In this document: positions 1 to 3,851 of the stretch, one piece after another
Layout of the letters: every line of letters begins with the position of its first letter
How positions within the stretch are numbered: the first letter of the stretch is position 1
Assembly: GCA_964387795.1 (NCBI GenBank)
Contig: CAYLYP010000071.1
Location: 1-16,539 of the forward strand
Direction: 5' to 3'
DNA: 16,539 nucleotides
From: an uncultured Bacteroidales bacterium
Lineage (GTDB): Bacteria; Bacteroidota; Bacteroidia; Bacteroidales; UBA7960
Notes under the pieces: generated by a model
What the model was told of the DNA's origin: nothing
Database searches by the model: none
The model's input: only the letters and a program-made list of their open reading frames with translations
Made by a program: the position numbers and the translations under genes

Positions 1-1001
1 GGAGTAAGGTCAAAGCCTCCGGGGCAAGCCCTGTGCCGTTTAAGCCCTGTGTTTCTTAAAAGAATGCTGTTGACATCAATACCATATTTCTTTCCAAGCC
101 TGCGTGCTTCGAAGAAGCCTTTTGTATATGACGAATAAAAATCTTTTAAGTCTGTATTGTTTGAAGCAAGCTTTTCATCAATTACCGGGTCAAAGCTTAA
201 GCGTTCAAGGCCGGGGTATTTGGAAGCAATCTCTAAAACCATTTCCTCTTGTCTGAATACATTAGCCGGGGTGATAATGGTATTCAGCGATGGCTTGATA
301 TTGGAGGCTAAAAGACTGATGATGTTTGTGCTTACCAATGAATGGTTTTTGCGTTGCAGGTTTTGAATATCTTCAAGGATATCAAACGAAATATTGGCTT
401 TGACATTATTGTGTTTTATCGTATCAATAATTTCTTTTGAAATCACTGAGCCATTGGAAGCAAAAGAGAAATGGATTGTAAACCCAAACTTATTGGCTTT
501 TTGGGATGCATAATCCAGCGCATGTTTCATGATATCCCAGGAGAGAAAAGGTTCGCCTCCGCCCCCAAAAGAGATATATAAATTACGGTTTGAAGTTCTT
601 TTTGGGTCAATAAAAAAATCAATGGTTTTTTCAAGCTTGAAAATACTCAGCTCCTCACCAGTGTGGCCTTTGGATGCATAACAATAGCTACATGAGAAAT
701 TGCATTTTGAATTGGGCAATATTGTAAGGGAGCAGGTTTCATGAGGCGATTGGATAATGTCATTTGGGTATTGATCGGGTATAGCTGTTAAAGCCTGCAC
801 TGCTTCAATGATGTCCCCATTATTGTTGATTTGAGGGGCATGAATAGCCTGGTGCAGGGTGTTTGCTTCTTCAGCAGATGCTATCAGCATATAGCCATTC
901 AGGGGTGCATAAATTAAATATGAGCTTGCTTCCTCCTGAGGTGTTGTATTTTCAAGGGGGATGAAAAAAATGTCGGAAAGTTCATTCTGAAAAGGTTTCA
1001 A
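1..1001 (-). CDS. Radical SAM/SPASM-domain peptide-maturase paralog, 3' partial (C-terminus lies beyond window position 1); starts with TTG at 999-1001; not in the supplied ORF track
   Basis: Manual minus-strand translation is open from 1001 to 1. It reads MKPFQNELSDIFFIPLENTTPQEEASSYLIYAPLNGYML...CNFSCSYCYASKGH...FGGGGEPFLSWD...ACPGGFDLTP. The CX3CX2C radical SAM motif and a GGEP motif are present. The protein is colinear with, and clearly paralogous to, the 1019..2389 protein (MKPFQNELSDIFFIP aligns with MKSSFVLENADIYPIP). The only in-frame ATG is at codon 36, so TTG at 999-1001 is the best start, 17 nt after the upstream gene's stop. Confidence 0.75.
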   Translation of the reverse strand, partial: MKPFQNELSDIFFIPLENTTPQEEASSYLIYAPLNGYMLIASAEEANTLHQAIHAPQINNNGDIIEAVQALTAIPDQYPNDIIQSPHETCSLTILPNSKCNFSCSYCYASKGHTGEELSIFKLEKTIDFFIDPKRTSNRNLYISFGGGGEPFLSWDIMKHALDYASQKANKFGFTIHFSFASNGSVISKEIIDTIKHNNVKANISFDILEDIQNLQRKNHSLVSTNIISLLASNIKPSLNTIITPANVFRQEEMVLEIASKYPGLERLSFDPVIDEKLASNNTDLKDFYSSYTKGFFEARRLGKKYGIDVNSILLRNTGLKRHRACPGGFDLT

Positions 1002-1018: not shown

Positions 1019-2389
1019 TTATTCACAAATCCCTGTTGCACTCAACACGCTTTCTTTTAAGCTAAGCCCGGATTCTTTGAGATACTGTTGGTTTAATTTT
1101 TCAAGGATCATCCTTTTTGTAAAGTTCCTTGTAAACTCACATATTTCTTCAAGCGCCTCAGGCTGATAAACATATTTCCAGGCCATACAGCCACCCCCGC
1201 ATTGCCATTTTGCAAAACAGTATTTACATTTTTCTTTGCTGTAAACATTATCATCTGCAAGGCTTTGAAACTGGAGTTCATCTATGATGAGTTTATAATC
1301 CTTGTCAAAAAAACCATAAATGCTCTCTGAAAAGCCAGGATCGGCAGGAGCAGTGATACGTGTACACATACTAATCAAGCCATCAGGTGTGAGTGCAAAT
1401 TCACCGGGACAAAAGCGTTCAATCAGAAGGTTGAAATTGCGTGAAGCAGAGCATTCTACATTTTTACCATGTTCAAGACCTATCTTCCATGCTTTGAAAA
1501 AATGATTGATATATTGATTATAGAAATCCCTGAAATCCTGAGAGTTTTTAAATGACTCAGCATCCGTAACTGCCTCTGTCATAATGTCCGTTACCTTAGG
1601 ATAAACGGAAATCACTTCCTGGATCATTTGTTCCTGTAACAGGACGTTTTCAGGGGTAATGGTAGCCCTTAGCTTTGGAATTATCCCATTATCTATTAAT
1701 TGTTTGATGTTTCGGGAGACAATCTGGTAACTTCCCCTTTGCATGTTTTGGATGCTTTCAAGGATCTCGAATGAAACAGAAACCGTAACATTGTATTTTT
1801 TTAATACACTAATGATTTCATCATTAATGACAGAACCATTGGTGACAAGTGAAAAATCAGTCTTAAAGCCATGCGCATCAGCTAAAGCCTGCCCATATTC
1901 GAGGATGAATTTTACATGATCCCATGACAGCATAGGTTCTCCCCCTCCTAATATTGCAATAAAAAGCATTGGCGCCTTGATCCTTTTAGAATCTATAAAA
2001 TGCTCCAAGGTTTTTTTAAGGATTTCCTTATCAATGATTTTTCCTGATCTTCCCTGAGCCGAATAGCAATAGCTACATGAGAAATTACAAACATTATTGG
2101 GAAGTATGGCAAGACGGGTAAAATCGTTTGGAGATACGAGCCTGGCTGCTTTTTTCTCAGGGTCTTTCTCTGATAAAGCAATCATTGCCCCATGTATTTC
2201 TTCATCGGTGCAAGACCCTGGTGCTTTTATCCAATCTTCCATCTTTTGCACATAATCGGGGCTAACAATCATTGCATTGTCTGACCAGGGAGCATACATT
2301 AATACATAATCCTCTTCAGGGGCATCAAACCAACTGCCAACAGGGATTGGATAAATATCAGCATTTTCTAATACAAAGGAAGATTTCAT
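1019..2389 (-). CDS. Radical SAM enzyme with C-terminal SPASM domain; predicted peptide-modifying (RiPP) maturase carrying a ~100-aa N-terminal extension
   Basis: 456-aa ORF. CNFSCSYC (CX3CX2C) lies at residues 101-108. The C-terminal CKYCFAKWQCGGGC fits the SPASM CX2CX5CX3C signature, and CPGEF...MC upstream supplies further auxiliary-cluster cysteines. The N-terminal 100 residues precede the radical SAM core. No sulfatase is nearby, so this is not a sulfatase-maturase context. Confidence 0.85.
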   Translation of the reverse strand: MKSSFVLENADIYPIPVGSWFDAPEEDYVLMYAPWSDNAMIVSPDYVQKMEDWIKAPGSCTDEEIHGAMIALSEKDPEKKAARLVSPNDFTRLAILPNNVCNFSCSYCYSAQGRSGKIIDKEILKKTLEHFIDSKRIKAPMLFIAILGGGEPMLSWDHVKFILEYGQALADAHGFKTDFSLVTNGSVINDEIISVLKKYNVTVSVSFEILESIQNMQRGSYQIVSRNIKQLIDNGIIPKLRATITPENVLLQEQMIQEVISVYPKVTDIMTEAVTDAESFKNSQDFRDFYNQYINHFFKAWKIGLEHGKNVECSASRNFNLLIERFCPGEFALTPDGLISMCTRITAPADPGFSESIYGFFDKDYKLIIDELQFQSLADDNVYSKEKCKYCFAKWQCGGGCMAWKYVYQPEALEEICEFTRNFTKRMILEKLNQQYLKESGLSLKESVLSATGICE

Positions 2390-2415
2390 AAATGGGGACT
2401 TAAAATCATTAAAAA

Positions 2416-2459
2416 AATGGCACCACTGAATTCAATCTTTTGTATTCAATGGCACCACT
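2416..2459. repeat. Tandem direct repeats AATGGCACCACT (2416-2427 and 2448-2459; minus-strand reading AGTGGTGCCATT) in the precursor-maturase intergenic region, ending in a T7 run on the transcribed strand
   Basis: Seen directly. Two 12-nt identical copies 32 nt apart, each with an adjacent TTCAAT/GAATTC-containing sequence. Confidence 0.5.
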
Positions 2460-2473
2460 TAACTTTTCACCTT

Positions 2474-2631
2474 GGCGAAATTAGTTATTGCATTTGCAGC
2501 CACCACAATGGTCACAGCATCCATAACTGTTTTTCTTGGTGTCTTTCACTTTTACAACTTTTGTAAGCATAACTCCTTTTTTTAGTGGTAATGGTTTACT
2601 TAAATTGCGACTCAGTTGGGCGAAATTAGTT
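2474..2631. repeat. Direct repeat TTGG(G)CGAAATTAGTT (2471-2486 and 2615-2631) bracketing the Cys-peptide gene
   Basis: Seen directly. The downstream copy (relative to minus-strand transcription) covers the last two codons and stop of the peptide gene. The second copy sits about 50 nt upstream of the peptide ATG. Confidence 0.5.
2481..2570 (-). CDS. Small Cys-rich peptide, candidate RiPP precursor (29 aa: MLTKVVKVKDTKKNSYGCCDHCGGCKCNN)
   Basis: ATG at 2568-2570 and TAA at 2481-2483 on the minus strand. The ORF is too short for the supplied track. It has a Lys-rich N-terminal half and five Cys within the last 12 residues (CCDHCGGCKCNN). It sits 91 nt upstream of, and co-oriented with, the two tandem radical SAM/SPASM genes. 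A purine-rich AAAAAAAGGAG precedes the ATG. The nearest in-frame upstream codon that could matter is a TAG stop, with no alternative ATG. Confidence 0.6.
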   Translation of the reverse strand: MLTKVVKVKDTKKNSYGCCDHCGGCKCNN

Positions 2632-2708
2632 TCTATCCAATGAATACTCTGCTAAGGTAAAAAAATATTTAAATAACCAAAAAGAATTATAATAAAAATC
2701 ACTTTTTT

Positions 2709-2840
2709 ATGAAAGATGCACCTGCAACAGATGCTTTGCAGCAATATAGCCGTATCAGTAAATTAAGAAAGATTTTAATGGGTGTTGAAGAAGTAATAAC
2801 CTCCATTAAATGTCCAGTAAGACAGGTATTTGTGTTTTGA
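2709..2840 (+). CDS. Hypothetical 43-aa ORF (MKDAPATDALQQYSRISKLRKILMGVEEVITSIKCPVRQVFVF), divergent from the Cys-peptide/rSAM operon
   Basis: ATG-initiated ORF found by manual translation. It lies in the ~350-nt gap between the precursor gene and the permease gene. No recognizable motif; may be spurious. Confidence 0.2.
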   Translation: MKDAPATDALQQYSRISKLRKILMGVEEVITSIKCPVRQVFVF

Positions 2841-2921: not shown

Positions 2922-3851
2922 ATGGAAAAGAAGCCGGCAAACACGTTTGTGTATTATTCATTGCTTTGTGTTTTGATGCTTATATGGGGCTCGTCCTTTA
3001 TATTAATGAAAAAAGGCCTGATCAGCTTTACAGGCTTTCAATTAGGGGCATTGCGCATCAGTATAAGTTTTTTTGTTTTATTGCCTTTTGCGGTCATGCG
3101 AATATCAAAGGTATGGCATCAACACCGTAAGAGCCTGCTTTATTTCTTTCTGGCAGGATTAATAGGTAATGGGATCCCTGCATTTTTGTTTGCCATTGCC
3201 CAGACACGGATTGATAGTCTGTTGGCAGGGATTTTAAATTCTTTGACTCCTTTGTTTACAGTGATTGTAGGTGTTTCCCTTTTTGGGGCAAAGACCCGCT
3301 GGGCTAATGTAGCAGGTGTCCTTACGGGCCTGGTAGGGGCTATTGGTTTGATGGTTGCAAGCAGTGGGCAAAGTTTTTCAATCAATTCTGCTTATGGCTT
3401 GTTGATTGTAGCTGCCACAGTGTTATATGCATTTAACCTGAATATCATCAAACGCTTTTTATCTGCCTTTGATGCAATCACTATAACATCAGTGGCATTT
3501 TTAAGTTTTGCAATACCTTTTGTAATCTATTTATTTACAACTGATTTTATAAGCCGAATGGAAACAATGCCCCAGGCCTGGAGTAGCTTTGGATATATTG
3601 TACTGCTTTCGGTACTTGGAACAGCGATGGCAGTGATATTGCAAAACTGGCTTATCAAACAGACCTCGCCTTTGTTTGTTGCAAGTGTGACCTATCTGAT
3701 TCCTATTGTGGCAATATTTTGGGGCATTATTGATGGGGAACGTTTTGAAGCAGTTTATATCTTTTGGGTGGGTCTGATATTGGCTGGTGTCTATCTGGCT
3801 AACAGGCCTGATGGGGGATTTATTAAAAAACGGCTGGGGAAAAAAGTGTAG
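2922..3851 (+). CDS. DMT-superfamily (EamA-like) permease, about 10 predicted TM helices
   Basis: The 309-aa protein is hydrophobic throughout with two similar halves. This is the typical duplicated EamA architecture (e.g. LMLIWGSSFILMKKGL..., ...ILNSLTPLFTVIVGVSLFGAK...). Confidence 0.7.
   Translation: MEKKPANTFVYYSLLCVLMLIWGSSFILMKKGLISFTGFQLGALRISISFFVLLPFAVMRISKVWHQHRKSLLYFFLAGLIGNGIPAFLFAIAQTRIDSLLAGILNSLTPLFTVIVGVSLFGAKTRWANVAGVLTGLVGAIGLMVASSGQSFSINSAYGLLIVAATVLYAFNLNIIKRFLSAFDAITITSVAFLSFAIPFVIYLFTTDFISRMETMPQAWSSFGYIVLLSVLGTAMAVILQNWLIKQTSPLFVASVTYLIPIVAIFWGIIDGERFEAVYIFWVGLILAGVYLANRPDGGFIKKRLGKKV

What the first reader, a model, noticed from the sequence alone, without database searches (positions are those of the whole stretch)
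2481..2570. Unannotated 29-aa ORF encoding MLTKVVKVKDTKKNSYGCCDHCGGCKCNN
The peptide splits into a basic, Lys-rich N-terminal half (a leader-like MLTKVVKVKDTKKNSYG) and a C-terminal CCDHCGGCKCNN with Cys at 18, 19, 22, 25 and 27. This two-part composition is what leader/core RiPP precursors look like. It is hard to explain as a random ORF directly upstream of two maturase-type genes. The leader is short (~17 aa), so if the N-terminal extensions of the maturases are RREs, the recognition mode may be atypical. An alternative reading is a small metal-binding (metallothionein-like) peptide.
Basis: seen in the sequence. Interest (0 to 1): 0.85.

Follow-up and report, generated by a model that had tools for sequence, protein, structure and literature searches.

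The report
Tiny cysteine-rich precursor of radical-SAM peptide
The 29-codon reading frame is a real, conserved gene for the starting peptide of an undescribed family of heavily modified small peptides in Bacteroidales bacteria, and here it is followed by five related radical-SAM enzymes rather than the two visible in the window.

Summary
Confirmed. The ORF lies on the minus strand (2570→2481) and encodes MLTKVVKVKDTKKNSYGCCDHCGGCKCNN.

Its composition alone is weak evidence: about 11% of shuffled windows contain an equally Cys-dense small ORF. Comparative evidence settles it.
- Every locus recovered through the neighbouring radical-SAM (rSAM) gene carries a homologous 28–30-aa ORF immediately upstream on the same strand. 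These loci had 39–52% enzyme identity.
- Conserved features are a K-[VI]-V-K-V-K leader, an invariant C-C-D, and a C-x-C-[N/D] tail.
- Codon changes are mostly synonymous.
- All 13 loci examined have a strong hairpin right after the stop codon.

A longer contig shows the window truncates the cluster. The full order is precursor, four rSAM/SPASM enzymes, a ~180-aa unknown protein, a fifth rSAM, then a short-chain dehydrogenase. The five paralogues form separate orthologous groups across genomes. All keep the rSAM motif and seven SPASM cysteines. They most resemble the thioether-forming enzymes CteB, PapB and QhpD, but fall far below every curated family cut-off.

A minimal three-gene form also exists, with a 4-Cys peptide, one rSAM and the ~180-aa protein.

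Most likely this is a densely thioether-cross-linked RiPP. The chemistry and the product's function are inferred, not shown. I found no prior description.

The parts
2481..2570 (-). Precursor peptide gene, 29 codons plus TAA stop: MLTKVVKVKDTKKNSYGCCDHCGGCKCNN
   Evidence: Searches give the ORF. Homologues sit at the same position in all related loci. Codon changes are 9-14 synonymous against 5 non-synonymous.
2520..2570 (-). Leader region, residues 1-17 (MLTKVVKVKDTKKNSYG). The alternating K-V-V-K-V-K is strand-like. The leader/core boundary is inferred.
   Evidence: MLTKVVKVK or MK[IV]VKVK is conserved in all three architectural types and V8 is invariant. The boundary is placed where the invariant CCD starts; this is an inference.
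2484..2519 (-). Core region, residues 18-29 (CCDHCGGCKCNN), with five Cys
   Evidence: C18, C19, D20, G24 and C25 are invariant across 13 distinct homologues, and the C-x-C-[N/D] tail is kept.
2411..2460 (-). Strong RNA hairpin followed by U7, between the precursor and the first rSAM gene. It looks like an intrinsic terminator or attenuator.
   Evidence: Minimum free energy is -28.5 kcal/mol, z = -4.77, and 0 of 200 shuffles fold as well. All 13 related loci have an analogous hairpin of different sequence, -17 to -33 kcal/mol. The simple terminator scan did not flag it, because its stem has many G-U pairs and a long loop.
1019..2389 (-). rSAM/SPASM peptide maturase, paralogue r1 (456 aa), with an N-terminal RRE-like domain
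   Evidence: - Pfam PF04055.
- The best NCBIfam hit is PapB at 116.6 bits against a cut-off of 340.
- The best PDB hit is CteB: phmmer 8.4e-18, Foldseek 2.7e-16 over the full length.
- The model has pLDDT 91.
- CX3CX2C and seven SPASM Cys are invariant.
1..1001 (-). rSAM/SPASM maturase, paralogue r2. It starts with TTG at 1001 and is cut by the window edge; it is 434 aa in L001.
   Evidence: Translation of frame 2, the full gene at L001 1823-3127, and PF04055.
2686..2713 (-). Promoter-like site (TTCATA, 16 nt spacer, TATAAT) about 115 nt upstream of the ATG. This is weak evidence.
   Evidence: Consensus scan. One site was found against 2.7 expected in shuffles, so it is not significant by itself.
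2612..2631 (.). Upstream copy of a 20-nt direct repeat. The other copy (2467-2486) overlaps the stop codon of the precursor.
   Evidence: family D1, 85% identity, spacing 145 nt. It may be a relic of a local duplication. The meaning is unknown.

Best explanation
The ORF is the precursor (leader plus core) gene of an undescribed family of rSAM-modified, cysteine-rich RiPPs found in Bacteroidales.

**Proposed sequence of events**
1. The gene is transcribed ahead of the enzymes. A strong hairpin with a U-tract just after its stop codon probably terminates or stabilises most transcripts, so precursor mRNA exceeds enzyme mRNA.
2. The conserved, strand-like leader MLTKVVKVK docks on the small beta-strand/helix domain at the N-terminus of each rSAM enzyme.
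3. Five paralogous CteB/PapB-like rSAM/SPASM enzymes (r1-r5) act in turn on the 12-residue core CCDHCGGCKCNN. Two lie in the window; the rest are on the extended contig. The most likely chemistry is Cys-sulfur-to-carbon thioether cross-links of the sactipeptide or ranthipeptide type, to acceptors such as the invariant Asp20 and Asn28. r1 would be the ancestral enzyme, because it is the one shared with the one-enzyme minimal system.
4. A conserved ~180-aa partner protein works physically with the rSAM enzymes.
5. A short-chain dehydrogenase tailors the product.
6. An aminopeptidase trims the leader. An M42 peptidase is encoded in the cluster in relatives but not in this contig.

**Shown:** the gene is real and under purifying selection. 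It is strictly linked to the enzymes. The paralogues are conserved as separate orthologous groups with intact cofactor motifs.

**Inferred:** leader docking, thioether chemistry, the order of action, the partner's role, leader removal, and what the product does.
For: **Linkage.** A homologous ORF lies immediately upstream, on the same strand, in every locus retrieved via an rSAM homologue. These are L004-6, L015/16, L017-19, L020-23 and L024-26. A scan using the peptide found six more loci with the same cluster.

**Purifying selection.** Codon differences are 9-14 synonymous against 5 non-synonymous. C18, C19, D20, G24, C25 and V8 are invariant.

**Cluster content.** L001 holds genes identical to the window's, in the order r1-r4, a 186-aa protein, r5, SDR.

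**Paralogues.**
- The neighbour-joining tree puts r1 to r5 each in its own orthologous group across genomes. The single enzyme of the minimal system groups with r1.
- CX3CX2C and seven SPASM Cys are conserved in 40-41 of 41 rSAM domains.

**Chemistry lead.** For all five paralogues the best family hits include the thioether-forming PapB, SCIFF maturase and QhpD. The closest solved structure is CteB, by sequence and by fold over the full length.

**RNA.** A hairpin follows the stop codon in 13 of 13 loci.

**Partner protein.** It is conserved. It is found fused to an rSAM domain in both orders.
Against: - No chemistry was observed. All rSAM hits are far below the curated cut-offs (for example 116.6 against 340 bits for PapB), so the reaction type is only an analogy.
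- The number of enzymes does not track the number of Cys. The minimal form has 4 Cys with one rSAM. L020 has 5 Cys with four rSAM domains. The window form has 5 Cys with five. A simple 'one enzyme per cysteine' model therefore fails, and the reason for five paralogues is open.
- Clusters lack a conserved exporter or endoprotease. The product may stay inside the cell, as proposed for SCIFF, and may keep its leader.
- There is no expression or translation evidence.
Confidence: 0.8

Rival explanations
1. It is a genuine RiPP or cofactor precursor, but the five rSAM enzymes do something other than thioether formation. Candidates are Cys oxidation to formylglycine or a thioaldehyde (anSME-like), C-C cross-links, epimerisation, or conversion of the Cys-rich core into a peptide-derived metal-binding or redox cofactor. 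Such a cofactor would be used inside the cell, in the manner of mycofactocin or PQQ.
For: - anSME, TigE, ChlB and SuiB are also significant structural neighbours.
- The paralogues differ at a possible eighth cluster ligand, C313. It is present in clade-I r1, r3 and r5, and absent in r2 and in most r4 copies. That hints at different chemistries.
- An SDR is conserved in clade I. Clade II instead has a B12-dependent rSAM and a formyltransferase domain.
- There is no conserved exporter.
- Enzyme number does not follow Cys number.
Against: - The top sequence-family and structure matches of every paralogue are thioether formers.
- The core has no conserved aromatic residue for a cyclophane or Trp cross-link.
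- An invariant Asp and a near-invariant Asn/Asp next to the Cys residues fit known Cys-Asp and Cys-Asn ranthipeptide links. That last point rests on established knowledge of PapB and NxxcB, not on a test here.
Confidence: 0.15
2. The short ORF is a regulatory leader peptide of the attenuation type. Ribosome stalling at the cluster of Cys codons would control the hairpin terminator that follows, tuning expression of the rSAM operon. The peptide itself would not be a substrate.
For: The layout looks like classical attenuation: a tiny ORF with five codons of one amino acid, then immediately a strong hairpin plus U-run upstream of an operon. In 3 of 12 loci (L001, L005, L015) the 3' end of the ORF can pair with the 5' arm of the hairpin.
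Against: - Alternative (antiterminator) pairings are weak and inconsistent, with z between +0.5 and -2.7, and most stay inside the ORF.
- Conservation is at the amino-acid level and reaches non-Cys positions (KVVKVK, D20, G24, N28) despite many synonymous changes.
- The operon encodes peptide maturases with leader-binding-type domains, and no other candidate substrate exists. In the minimal form the cluster has only three genes.
- The two roles could coexist.
Confidence: 0.03
3. It is an unmodified metallothionein-like metal-binding micro-protein, or a chance ORF, that merely sits next to the rSAM genes.
For: There are five Cys in 10 residues. By composition alone, 10.7% of shuffled windows hold a comparably Cys-dense small ORF. 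The peptide has no Pfam or NCBIfam hit.
Against: - The peptide co-occurs with the rSAM gene, in a fixed position and orientation, in 100% of enzyme-retrieved loci across about 40%-identical clades.
- It is under purifying selection.
- The conserved leader half has no obvious role in a metallothionein.
Confidence: 0.02

Closest known systems
Ranthipeptides: SCIFF/CteA-CteB (thermocellin), freyrasin/PapA-PapB, and the related QhpC-QhpD
   Same: - The precursor is short, with a Cys-rich C-terminal core.
- The maturase is an rSAM with a 7-Cys SPASM domain and an N-terminal leader-binding-type domain.
- CteB is the closest solved structure and PapB the best NCBIfam hit for four of the five paralogues.
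- As with SCIFF, the clusters lack a dedicated exporter or protease.
   Different: - All curated family cut-offs are missed by a wide margin: 100-119 against 340 bits for PapB, and 82-94 against 425 for the SCIFF maturase.
- The precursor is about half the length of SCIFF and has no detectable similarity to it.
- Up to five orthologously conserved paralogous maturases serve one 12-residue core, where known systems use one enzyme for all links.
- There is an extra conserved ~180-aa partner protein.
- The phylum is Bacteroidota rather than Firmicutes.
Sactipeptides (for example subtilosin A/AlbA, thuricin CD/TrnC+TrnD, ruminococcin C/RumMc1+2)
   Same: rSAM/SPASM enzymes act on a Cys-containing core after leader recognition. 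Some clusters carry two rSAM paralogues.
   Different: - In those cases the two enzymes serve different precursors.
- Sactipeptide cores are longer hairpins, with Cys donors in one half and acceptors in the other.
- Here five Cys are packed into 10 residues and there is a single precursor gene per locus.
Haft's bioinformatic 'short Cys-rich peptide + rSAM/SPASM' families: TIGR04463 (rSAM_vs_C_rich), CcpM/TIGR04068, CefB/NF038107
   Same: The concept is the same: a very short Cys-rich peptide next to an rSAM/SPASM maturase, with chemistry unknown.
   Different: Scores are 52-80 bits against cut-offs of 500-600, so this is not a member of any of them. None of them is described with five paralogous maturases; that last point is from my own knowledge.
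Leader-peptide transcription attenuators (trpL, hisL type)
   Same: A tiny ORF enriched in one amino acid is followed directly by a terminator-like hairpin upstream of an operon.
   Different: There is no consistent antiterminator alternative. Amino-acid-level conservation extends outside the Cys codons. The operon encodes peptide maturases, not Cys biosynthesis.

Membership tests
RiPP precursor + rSAM/SPASM maturase system (general class) | A short precursor gene is encoded next to the maturase gene(s) on the same strand, and this is conserved across genomes | tested here: met
   The peptide ORF lies directly upstream in all loci retrieved via the enzyme.
RiPP precursor + rSAM/SPASM maturase system (general class) | The precursor is bipartite: a conserved leader plus a core holding the modified residues | tested here: met
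   The leader motif K-[VI]-V-K-V-K is conserved, and the core has an invariant CCD and a C-x-C-[N/D] tail. The cleavage site itself is not known.
RiPP precursor + rSAM/SPASM maturase system (general class) | The maturase has the CX3CX2C rSAM motif, a SPASM auxiliary-cluster domain and a leader-recognition (RRE-like) N-terminal domain | tested here: met
   CX3CX2C is present in 41 of 41 domains and the seven SPASM Cys in 40-41 of 41. The predicted N-terminal domain is beta-beta-beta-alpha-alpha, and the model aligns over its full length with CteB. Binding of the leader was not tested.
RiPP precursor + rSAM/SPASM maturase system (general class) | The peptide is actually modified by the enzyme(s) | not testable with these tools
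   This needs co-expression and mass spectrometry.
Ranthipeptide / SCIFF-PapB families | The maturase scores above the curated cut-off of TIGR03974 (SCIFF maturase) or NF047865 (PapB) | tested here: not met
   r1 scores 93.9 against 425 bits and 116.6 against 340 bits. r2-r5 and the minimal-type enzyme score similarly.
Ranthipeptide / SCIFF-PapB families | The precursor matches the SCIFF precursor model or carries repeated CX3D/E motifs | tested here: not met
   The peptide has no NCBIfam hit at E up to 1. The window core has no CX3D. It has one CX3N (C25 to N29), and the minimal type has one CX3D.
Ranthipeptide / SCIFF-PapB families | Thioether links run from Cys sulfur to a beta- or gamma-carbon of the acceptor residue | not testable with these tools
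   This is a chemical feature and needs MS/NMR of the product.
TIGR04463 / CcpM (TIGR04068) / CefB (NF038107) Cys-rich peptide systems | The maturase scores above the family's curated cut-off | tested here: not met
   Scores are 52.3-79.9 against 525, 58-71.5 against 500, and 65.6-79 against 600 bits.
Metallothionein-like small metal-binding protein | A Cys-rich peptide functions unmodified and independently of modification enzymes | tested here: not met
   The peptide is strictly linked to rSAM genes in every locus and has no Pfam family hit. Metal binding itself was not testable.
GNAT acyl-CoA N-acyltransferases (for the ~180-aa partner protein) | Significant sequence or fold match to GNAT | tested here: inconclusive
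   - There are no Pfam, NCBIfam or PDB-sequence hits.
- The best Foldseek hit is SpeG at E = 0.17, which is not significant.

The most novel reading that the evidence does not exclude
This family makes the most densely rSAM-processed ribosomal peptide known. Four to five dedicated, orthologously conserved SPASM enzymes, helped by a new ~180-aa partner protein, would each perform one site-specific step on a 12-residue core. The result would be a cage-like poly-thioether, or a peptide-derived thiolate or metal-binding cofactor. It would be used inside Bacteroidales cells rather than secreted as a bacteriocin.
Probability: 0.3. Interest if true: 0.85.

Novelty: new variant of a known kind. Interest (0 to 1): 0.72.

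Why it matters
**Enzymology.** rSAM-modified peptides are a main source of new enzyme chemistry and bioactive scaffolds. Known sactipeptide and ranthipeptide pathways use one enzyme to install all cross-links. This family keeps five distinct paralogues in fixed order across genomes for a 12-residue core, and a one-enzyme ancestral form also exists. It is therefore a natural system for asking how rSAM maturases divide labour and recognise progressively constrained intermediates.

**Distribution.** The family occurs in gut, rumen and digester Bacteroidales. One variant's peptide was seen on 166 contigs and its first enzyme in 251 collection blocks. RiPP chemistry in this group is poorly known.

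**Annotation.** The result gives concrete gene calls for an unnamed peptide and for a protein family with only 37 cluster representatives among 1.8 billion.

Tried and rejected
- **'One rSAM per cysteine' was rejected.** The minimal type has 4 Cys with one enzyme. L020/21 has 5 Cys with four rSAM domains.
- The minimum query is 40 aa. I used a back-translated metagenome scan instead.
- **No family names the parts.** Pfam and NCBIfam give nothing for the peptide or the ~180-aa protein.
- **GNAT assignment for the partner protein was not adopted.** The similarity is weak only. The afdb50 fold library was unavailable.
- **No RNA families in the window.** Rfam and tRNA scans found nothing.
- **Attenuation model.** I looked for antiterminator pairings in 12 loci. 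They were inconsistent.
- **Literature.** Five full-text searches found no description of this family. They covered multi-rSAM clusters, ranthipeptides in Bacteroidales, and the peptide strings themselves. Two candidate papers were read. The 2023 Bacteroidales RiPP survey deals with GG-leader peptides and other clusters. Supplementary tables of large rSAM atlases were not checked.
- **Not part of the system.** The EamA transporter next to the ORF (2922-3851, plus strand) is not present at the other loci examined.
- **Weak local signals.** The Shine-Dalgarno-like AGGAG is only 2 nt from the ATG. The sigma-70-like promoter hit is not above shuffle expectation.

Full report
**1. The observation**

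The ORF is real and sits on the minus strand. The ATG is at 2570-2568 and the TAA stop at 2483-2481. It encodes MLTKVVKVKDTKKNSYGCCDHCGGCKCNN.

An AGGAG sits only 2 nt before the ATG, behind an A-rich tract. It is not a convincing Shine-Dalgarno site.

Two genes follow on the same strand:
- A 456-aa radical-SAM (rSAM) gene at 2389-1019.
- A second rSAM gene that starts with TTG at 1001 and runs off the window.

The rest of the window holds ordinary chromosomal genes. These are an EamA transporter on the opposite strand, ribosomal proteins L21 and L27, seryl-tRNA synthetase, an acyl-ACP thioesterase, MeaB and a flotillin-like protein. GC content is 38%.

Composition alone does not prove a gene. 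In 300 dinucleotide-preserving shuffles, 10.7% produced a small ORF with at least 5 Cys in 12 residues.

**2. The window truncates the cluster**

An exact-match look-up of the 456-aa protein found a longer contig, L001, plus L002 and an NCBI Bacteroidales MAG contig, L003. In L001 the gene order is:
- the peptide;
- rSAM r1 (456 aa), r2 (434), r3 (452) and r4 (456);
- a 186-aa protein with no Pfam domain;
- rSAM r5 (451 aa);
- a short-chain dehydrogenase of 241 aa;
- then unrelated-looking genes.

**3. Conservation of the peptide**

*Loci found through the enzyme.* A genome-collection scan with r1 found three loci whose enzymes are 39-41% identical to it. They are a Cryptobacteroides MAG, a yak-caecum Bacteroidales MAG and a rumen Prevotellaceae MAG. 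Each has a tiny ORF immediately upstream of its rSAM array, of the form M(K)[IV]VKVK...GCCDCFGGGCRCN[HD].

Further loci came from r1 homologues of 37-51% identity. Every one of them also has the peptide.

*Loci found through the peptide.* A metagenome scan with the peptide alignment gave six more loci with near-identical cluster order.

*What is conserved.* Thirteen distinct peptides align with V8, C18, C19, D20, G24 and C25 invariant, and with a conserved C-x-C-[N/D] tail. Between the window gene and its closer homologues, 9-14 codons differ synonymously and 5 non-synonymously.

It was therefore run, and it fails to refute.

**4. Three architectures**

| Type | Loci | Peptide | Core | Other genes |
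|---|---|---|---|---|
| Minimal | L015, L016, L024, L025 (two lie on 3.7-4.8-Mb contigs) | 28 aa, 4 Cys | CCD[HF]ACGC[ND]DR | one rSAM and a ~180-aa protein, nothing else conserved |
| Clade I | the window and L001/2, L009-14, L017-21 | 29 aa, 5 Cys | CCD[HQN]C[GS]GC[KQR]CNN | r1-r4, ~180-aa protein, r5, SDR; often an M42 aminopeptidase and a SAM methyltransferase |
| Clade II | L004-6, L022/23, L026 | 28 aa, 5 Cys | CCDCFGGGCRCN[HDN] | five SPASM rSAMs (some fused), a B12-binding rSAM, a truncated formyltransferase domain; often an M42 peptidase |

L020/21 is a clade-I variant with four rSAM domains, r3 and r4 fused, and no r5.

Enzyme number therefore does not equal Cys number. My first idea, one enzyme per cysteine, is rejected.

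**5. The enzymes**

*Paralogue history.* A neighbour-joining tree of 41 rSAM domains puts each clade-I paralogue in its own orthologous group across genomes. The minimal-type enzyme joins the r1 group. The expansion is therefore old and maintained, and r1 is the ancestral type.

*Cofactor motifs.* All domains keep CX3CX2C and seven SPASM cysteines. A possible eighth ligand, C313, is paralogue-specific:
- It is present in r1, r3, r5, the minimal type, and clade-II r2 and r3.
- It is replaced in clade-I r2 and most r4 copies, and in clade-II r1, r4 and r5.

*N-terminal domain.* All carry the conserved N-terminal domain except clade-II r4 in L004 and L005.

*Family and structure matches.*
- The best NCBIfam hits for every paralogue are PapB, the SCIFF maturase, QhpD and the nif11-type maturase. 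All fall far below their curated cut-offs.
- The closest solved protein is CteB, with phmmer E = 8.4e-18.
- An AlphaFold model of r1 has pLDDT 91. It shows an N-terminal unit of three strands and two helices.
- That model aligns over its full length with CteB at Foldseek E = 2.7e-16. TigE, anSME, ChlB, SkfB and SuiB follow.

**6. The partner protein**

- The ~180-aa protein is conserved in the minimal and clade-I types, with invariant D59, P62, G113-S114, E119, S125-R126-K127-L128, Y131 and N153.
- It is rare. Only 37 cluster representatives among 1.84 billion proteins match its profile.
- Several of those are fusions with an rSAM domain, in both orders. This argues for direct cooperation with the enzymes.
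- An acyl-transfer role is a lead, not a finding. Clade II lacks this protein and has a formyltransferase domain instead.

**7. RNA features**

*Hairpin after the stop codon.* In the window a stem-loop at 2460-2415 is followed by U7. It has a minimum free energy of -28.5 kcal/mol and z = -4.77. All 13 loci examined have a comparably strong hairpin of unrelated sequence at the same place, often U-rich afterwards. This is the usual arrangement in bacteriocin and RiPP operons and gives excess precursor mRNA. That statement rests on established knowledge.

*Attenuation rival.* The same layout also resembles leader-peptide attenuation, so I looked for antiterminator pairings in 12 loci. They are weak and inconsistent. 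That result, the amino-acid-level conservation outside the Cys codons, and the lack of any other substrate make attenuation as the sole function unlikely.

**8. Mechanism proposed**

The leader docks on the N-terminal domains. The rSAM enzymes then act successively on the core, most likely forming Cys-S-to-carbon thioethers to the invariant Asp and Asn/Asp and possibly to Gly. The partner protein assists. The SDR tailors the product in clade I; the B12-rSAM and formyltransferase do so in clade II. An M42 aminopeptidase, or a housekeeping one in this organism, trims the leader up to the cross-linked core.

Only the genetic architecture and its conservation are shown. Every chemical step is inferred.

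**9. Comparison and novelty**

The system works like a sactipeptide or ranthipeptide pathway, but it fails the curated membership tests of every named family. The differences are:
- the ultra-short precursor;
- the multiplicity of conserved paralogous maturases for one 12-residue core;
- the partner protein;
- the host phylum.

Five full-text literature searches and two papers read found no description. The peptide carries no name in any source.

I rate it a new variant of a known kind.

Noticed in passing
L004 7132-7162; L005 1895-1925; L006 7168-7198; L010 655-685; L011 8948-8978; L012 3946-3976; L013 9948-9978; L022 7156-7189; L026 1354-1384: A conserved ~31-nt element, GGCGnAnnCCGAAAAGCC..AAyAGAGTAGG, occurs exactly once per locus, 25-60 nt upstream of the precursor ATG, in both clade I and clade II. 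A 3-bp stem shows two compensatory changes (GGC/GCC, GGU/ACC, GGA/UCC). It is absent in canonical form from the window, from L009 and L020, and from the minimal type. It may be a cis-regulatory RNA or a protein-binding site.
   Followed up: partly
L017/L018/L019 8120-8875 (also L013 9012-9767): A NusG-paralogue gene (PF02357) lies directly upstream of the precursor in the most widespread clade-I variant. This suggests dedicated antitermination of the long operon, as with UpxY or LoaP, perhaps acting through the conserved 5' element.
   Followed up: no
window 2467-2486 and 2612-2631: A 20-nt direct repeat (85% identical) brackets the precursor gene. One copy overlaps its stop codon and the other lies about 42 nt upstream of the ATG. 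It may be a relic of a tandem duplication of the precursor gene.
   Followed up: partly
P0226, P0236 (rSAM then partner); P0223, P0239, P0240 (partner then rSAM): The rare ~180-aa partner domain occurs fused to an rSAM domain in both orders. The family has only 37 representatives among 1.84 billion proteins.
   Followed up: partly
L001 r1-r5 and orthologues, alignment position of r1 residue 313: A paralogue-specific cysteine lies 14 residues before the first SPASM Cys. It is present in r1, r3 and r5, and replaced by Ser or Val in r2 and most r4 copies. It could decide whether auxiliary cluster I has an open coordination site, which would mean the paralogues differ in chemistry.
   Followed up: partly
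L010 4943-5308 and 5289-6227; L004 11344-12417; L005 6084-7169: In L010 the fourth rSAM is split into two ORFs of 121 and 312 aa, from either a frameshift or an assembly error. Clade-II paralogue r4 in L004 and L005 lacks the N-terminal leader-binding-type domain altogether.
   Followed up: no
L013/L014 10193-10888 and 2114-2809; L006 11334-13433; L022 11350-14511: Predicted membrane or unknown proteins are inserted into some clusters. One is a 231-aa protein between the precursor and r1. Another is a ~700-aa protein, free in L006 and fused to an rSAM as a 1053-aa protein in L022. They are candidates for export or immunity.
   Followed up: no
protein P0220: A 609-aa protein is listed as a member of the 90%-identity cluster of the 29-aa clade-I peptide. 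It is probably a gene-calling or clustering artefact, or a read-through fusion.
   Followed up: no
window 2922-3851 (+): An EamA-family transporter gene is divergently adjacent to the precursor. It was not seen next to the cluster in the other loci examined, so it is probably unrelated.
   Followed up: partly
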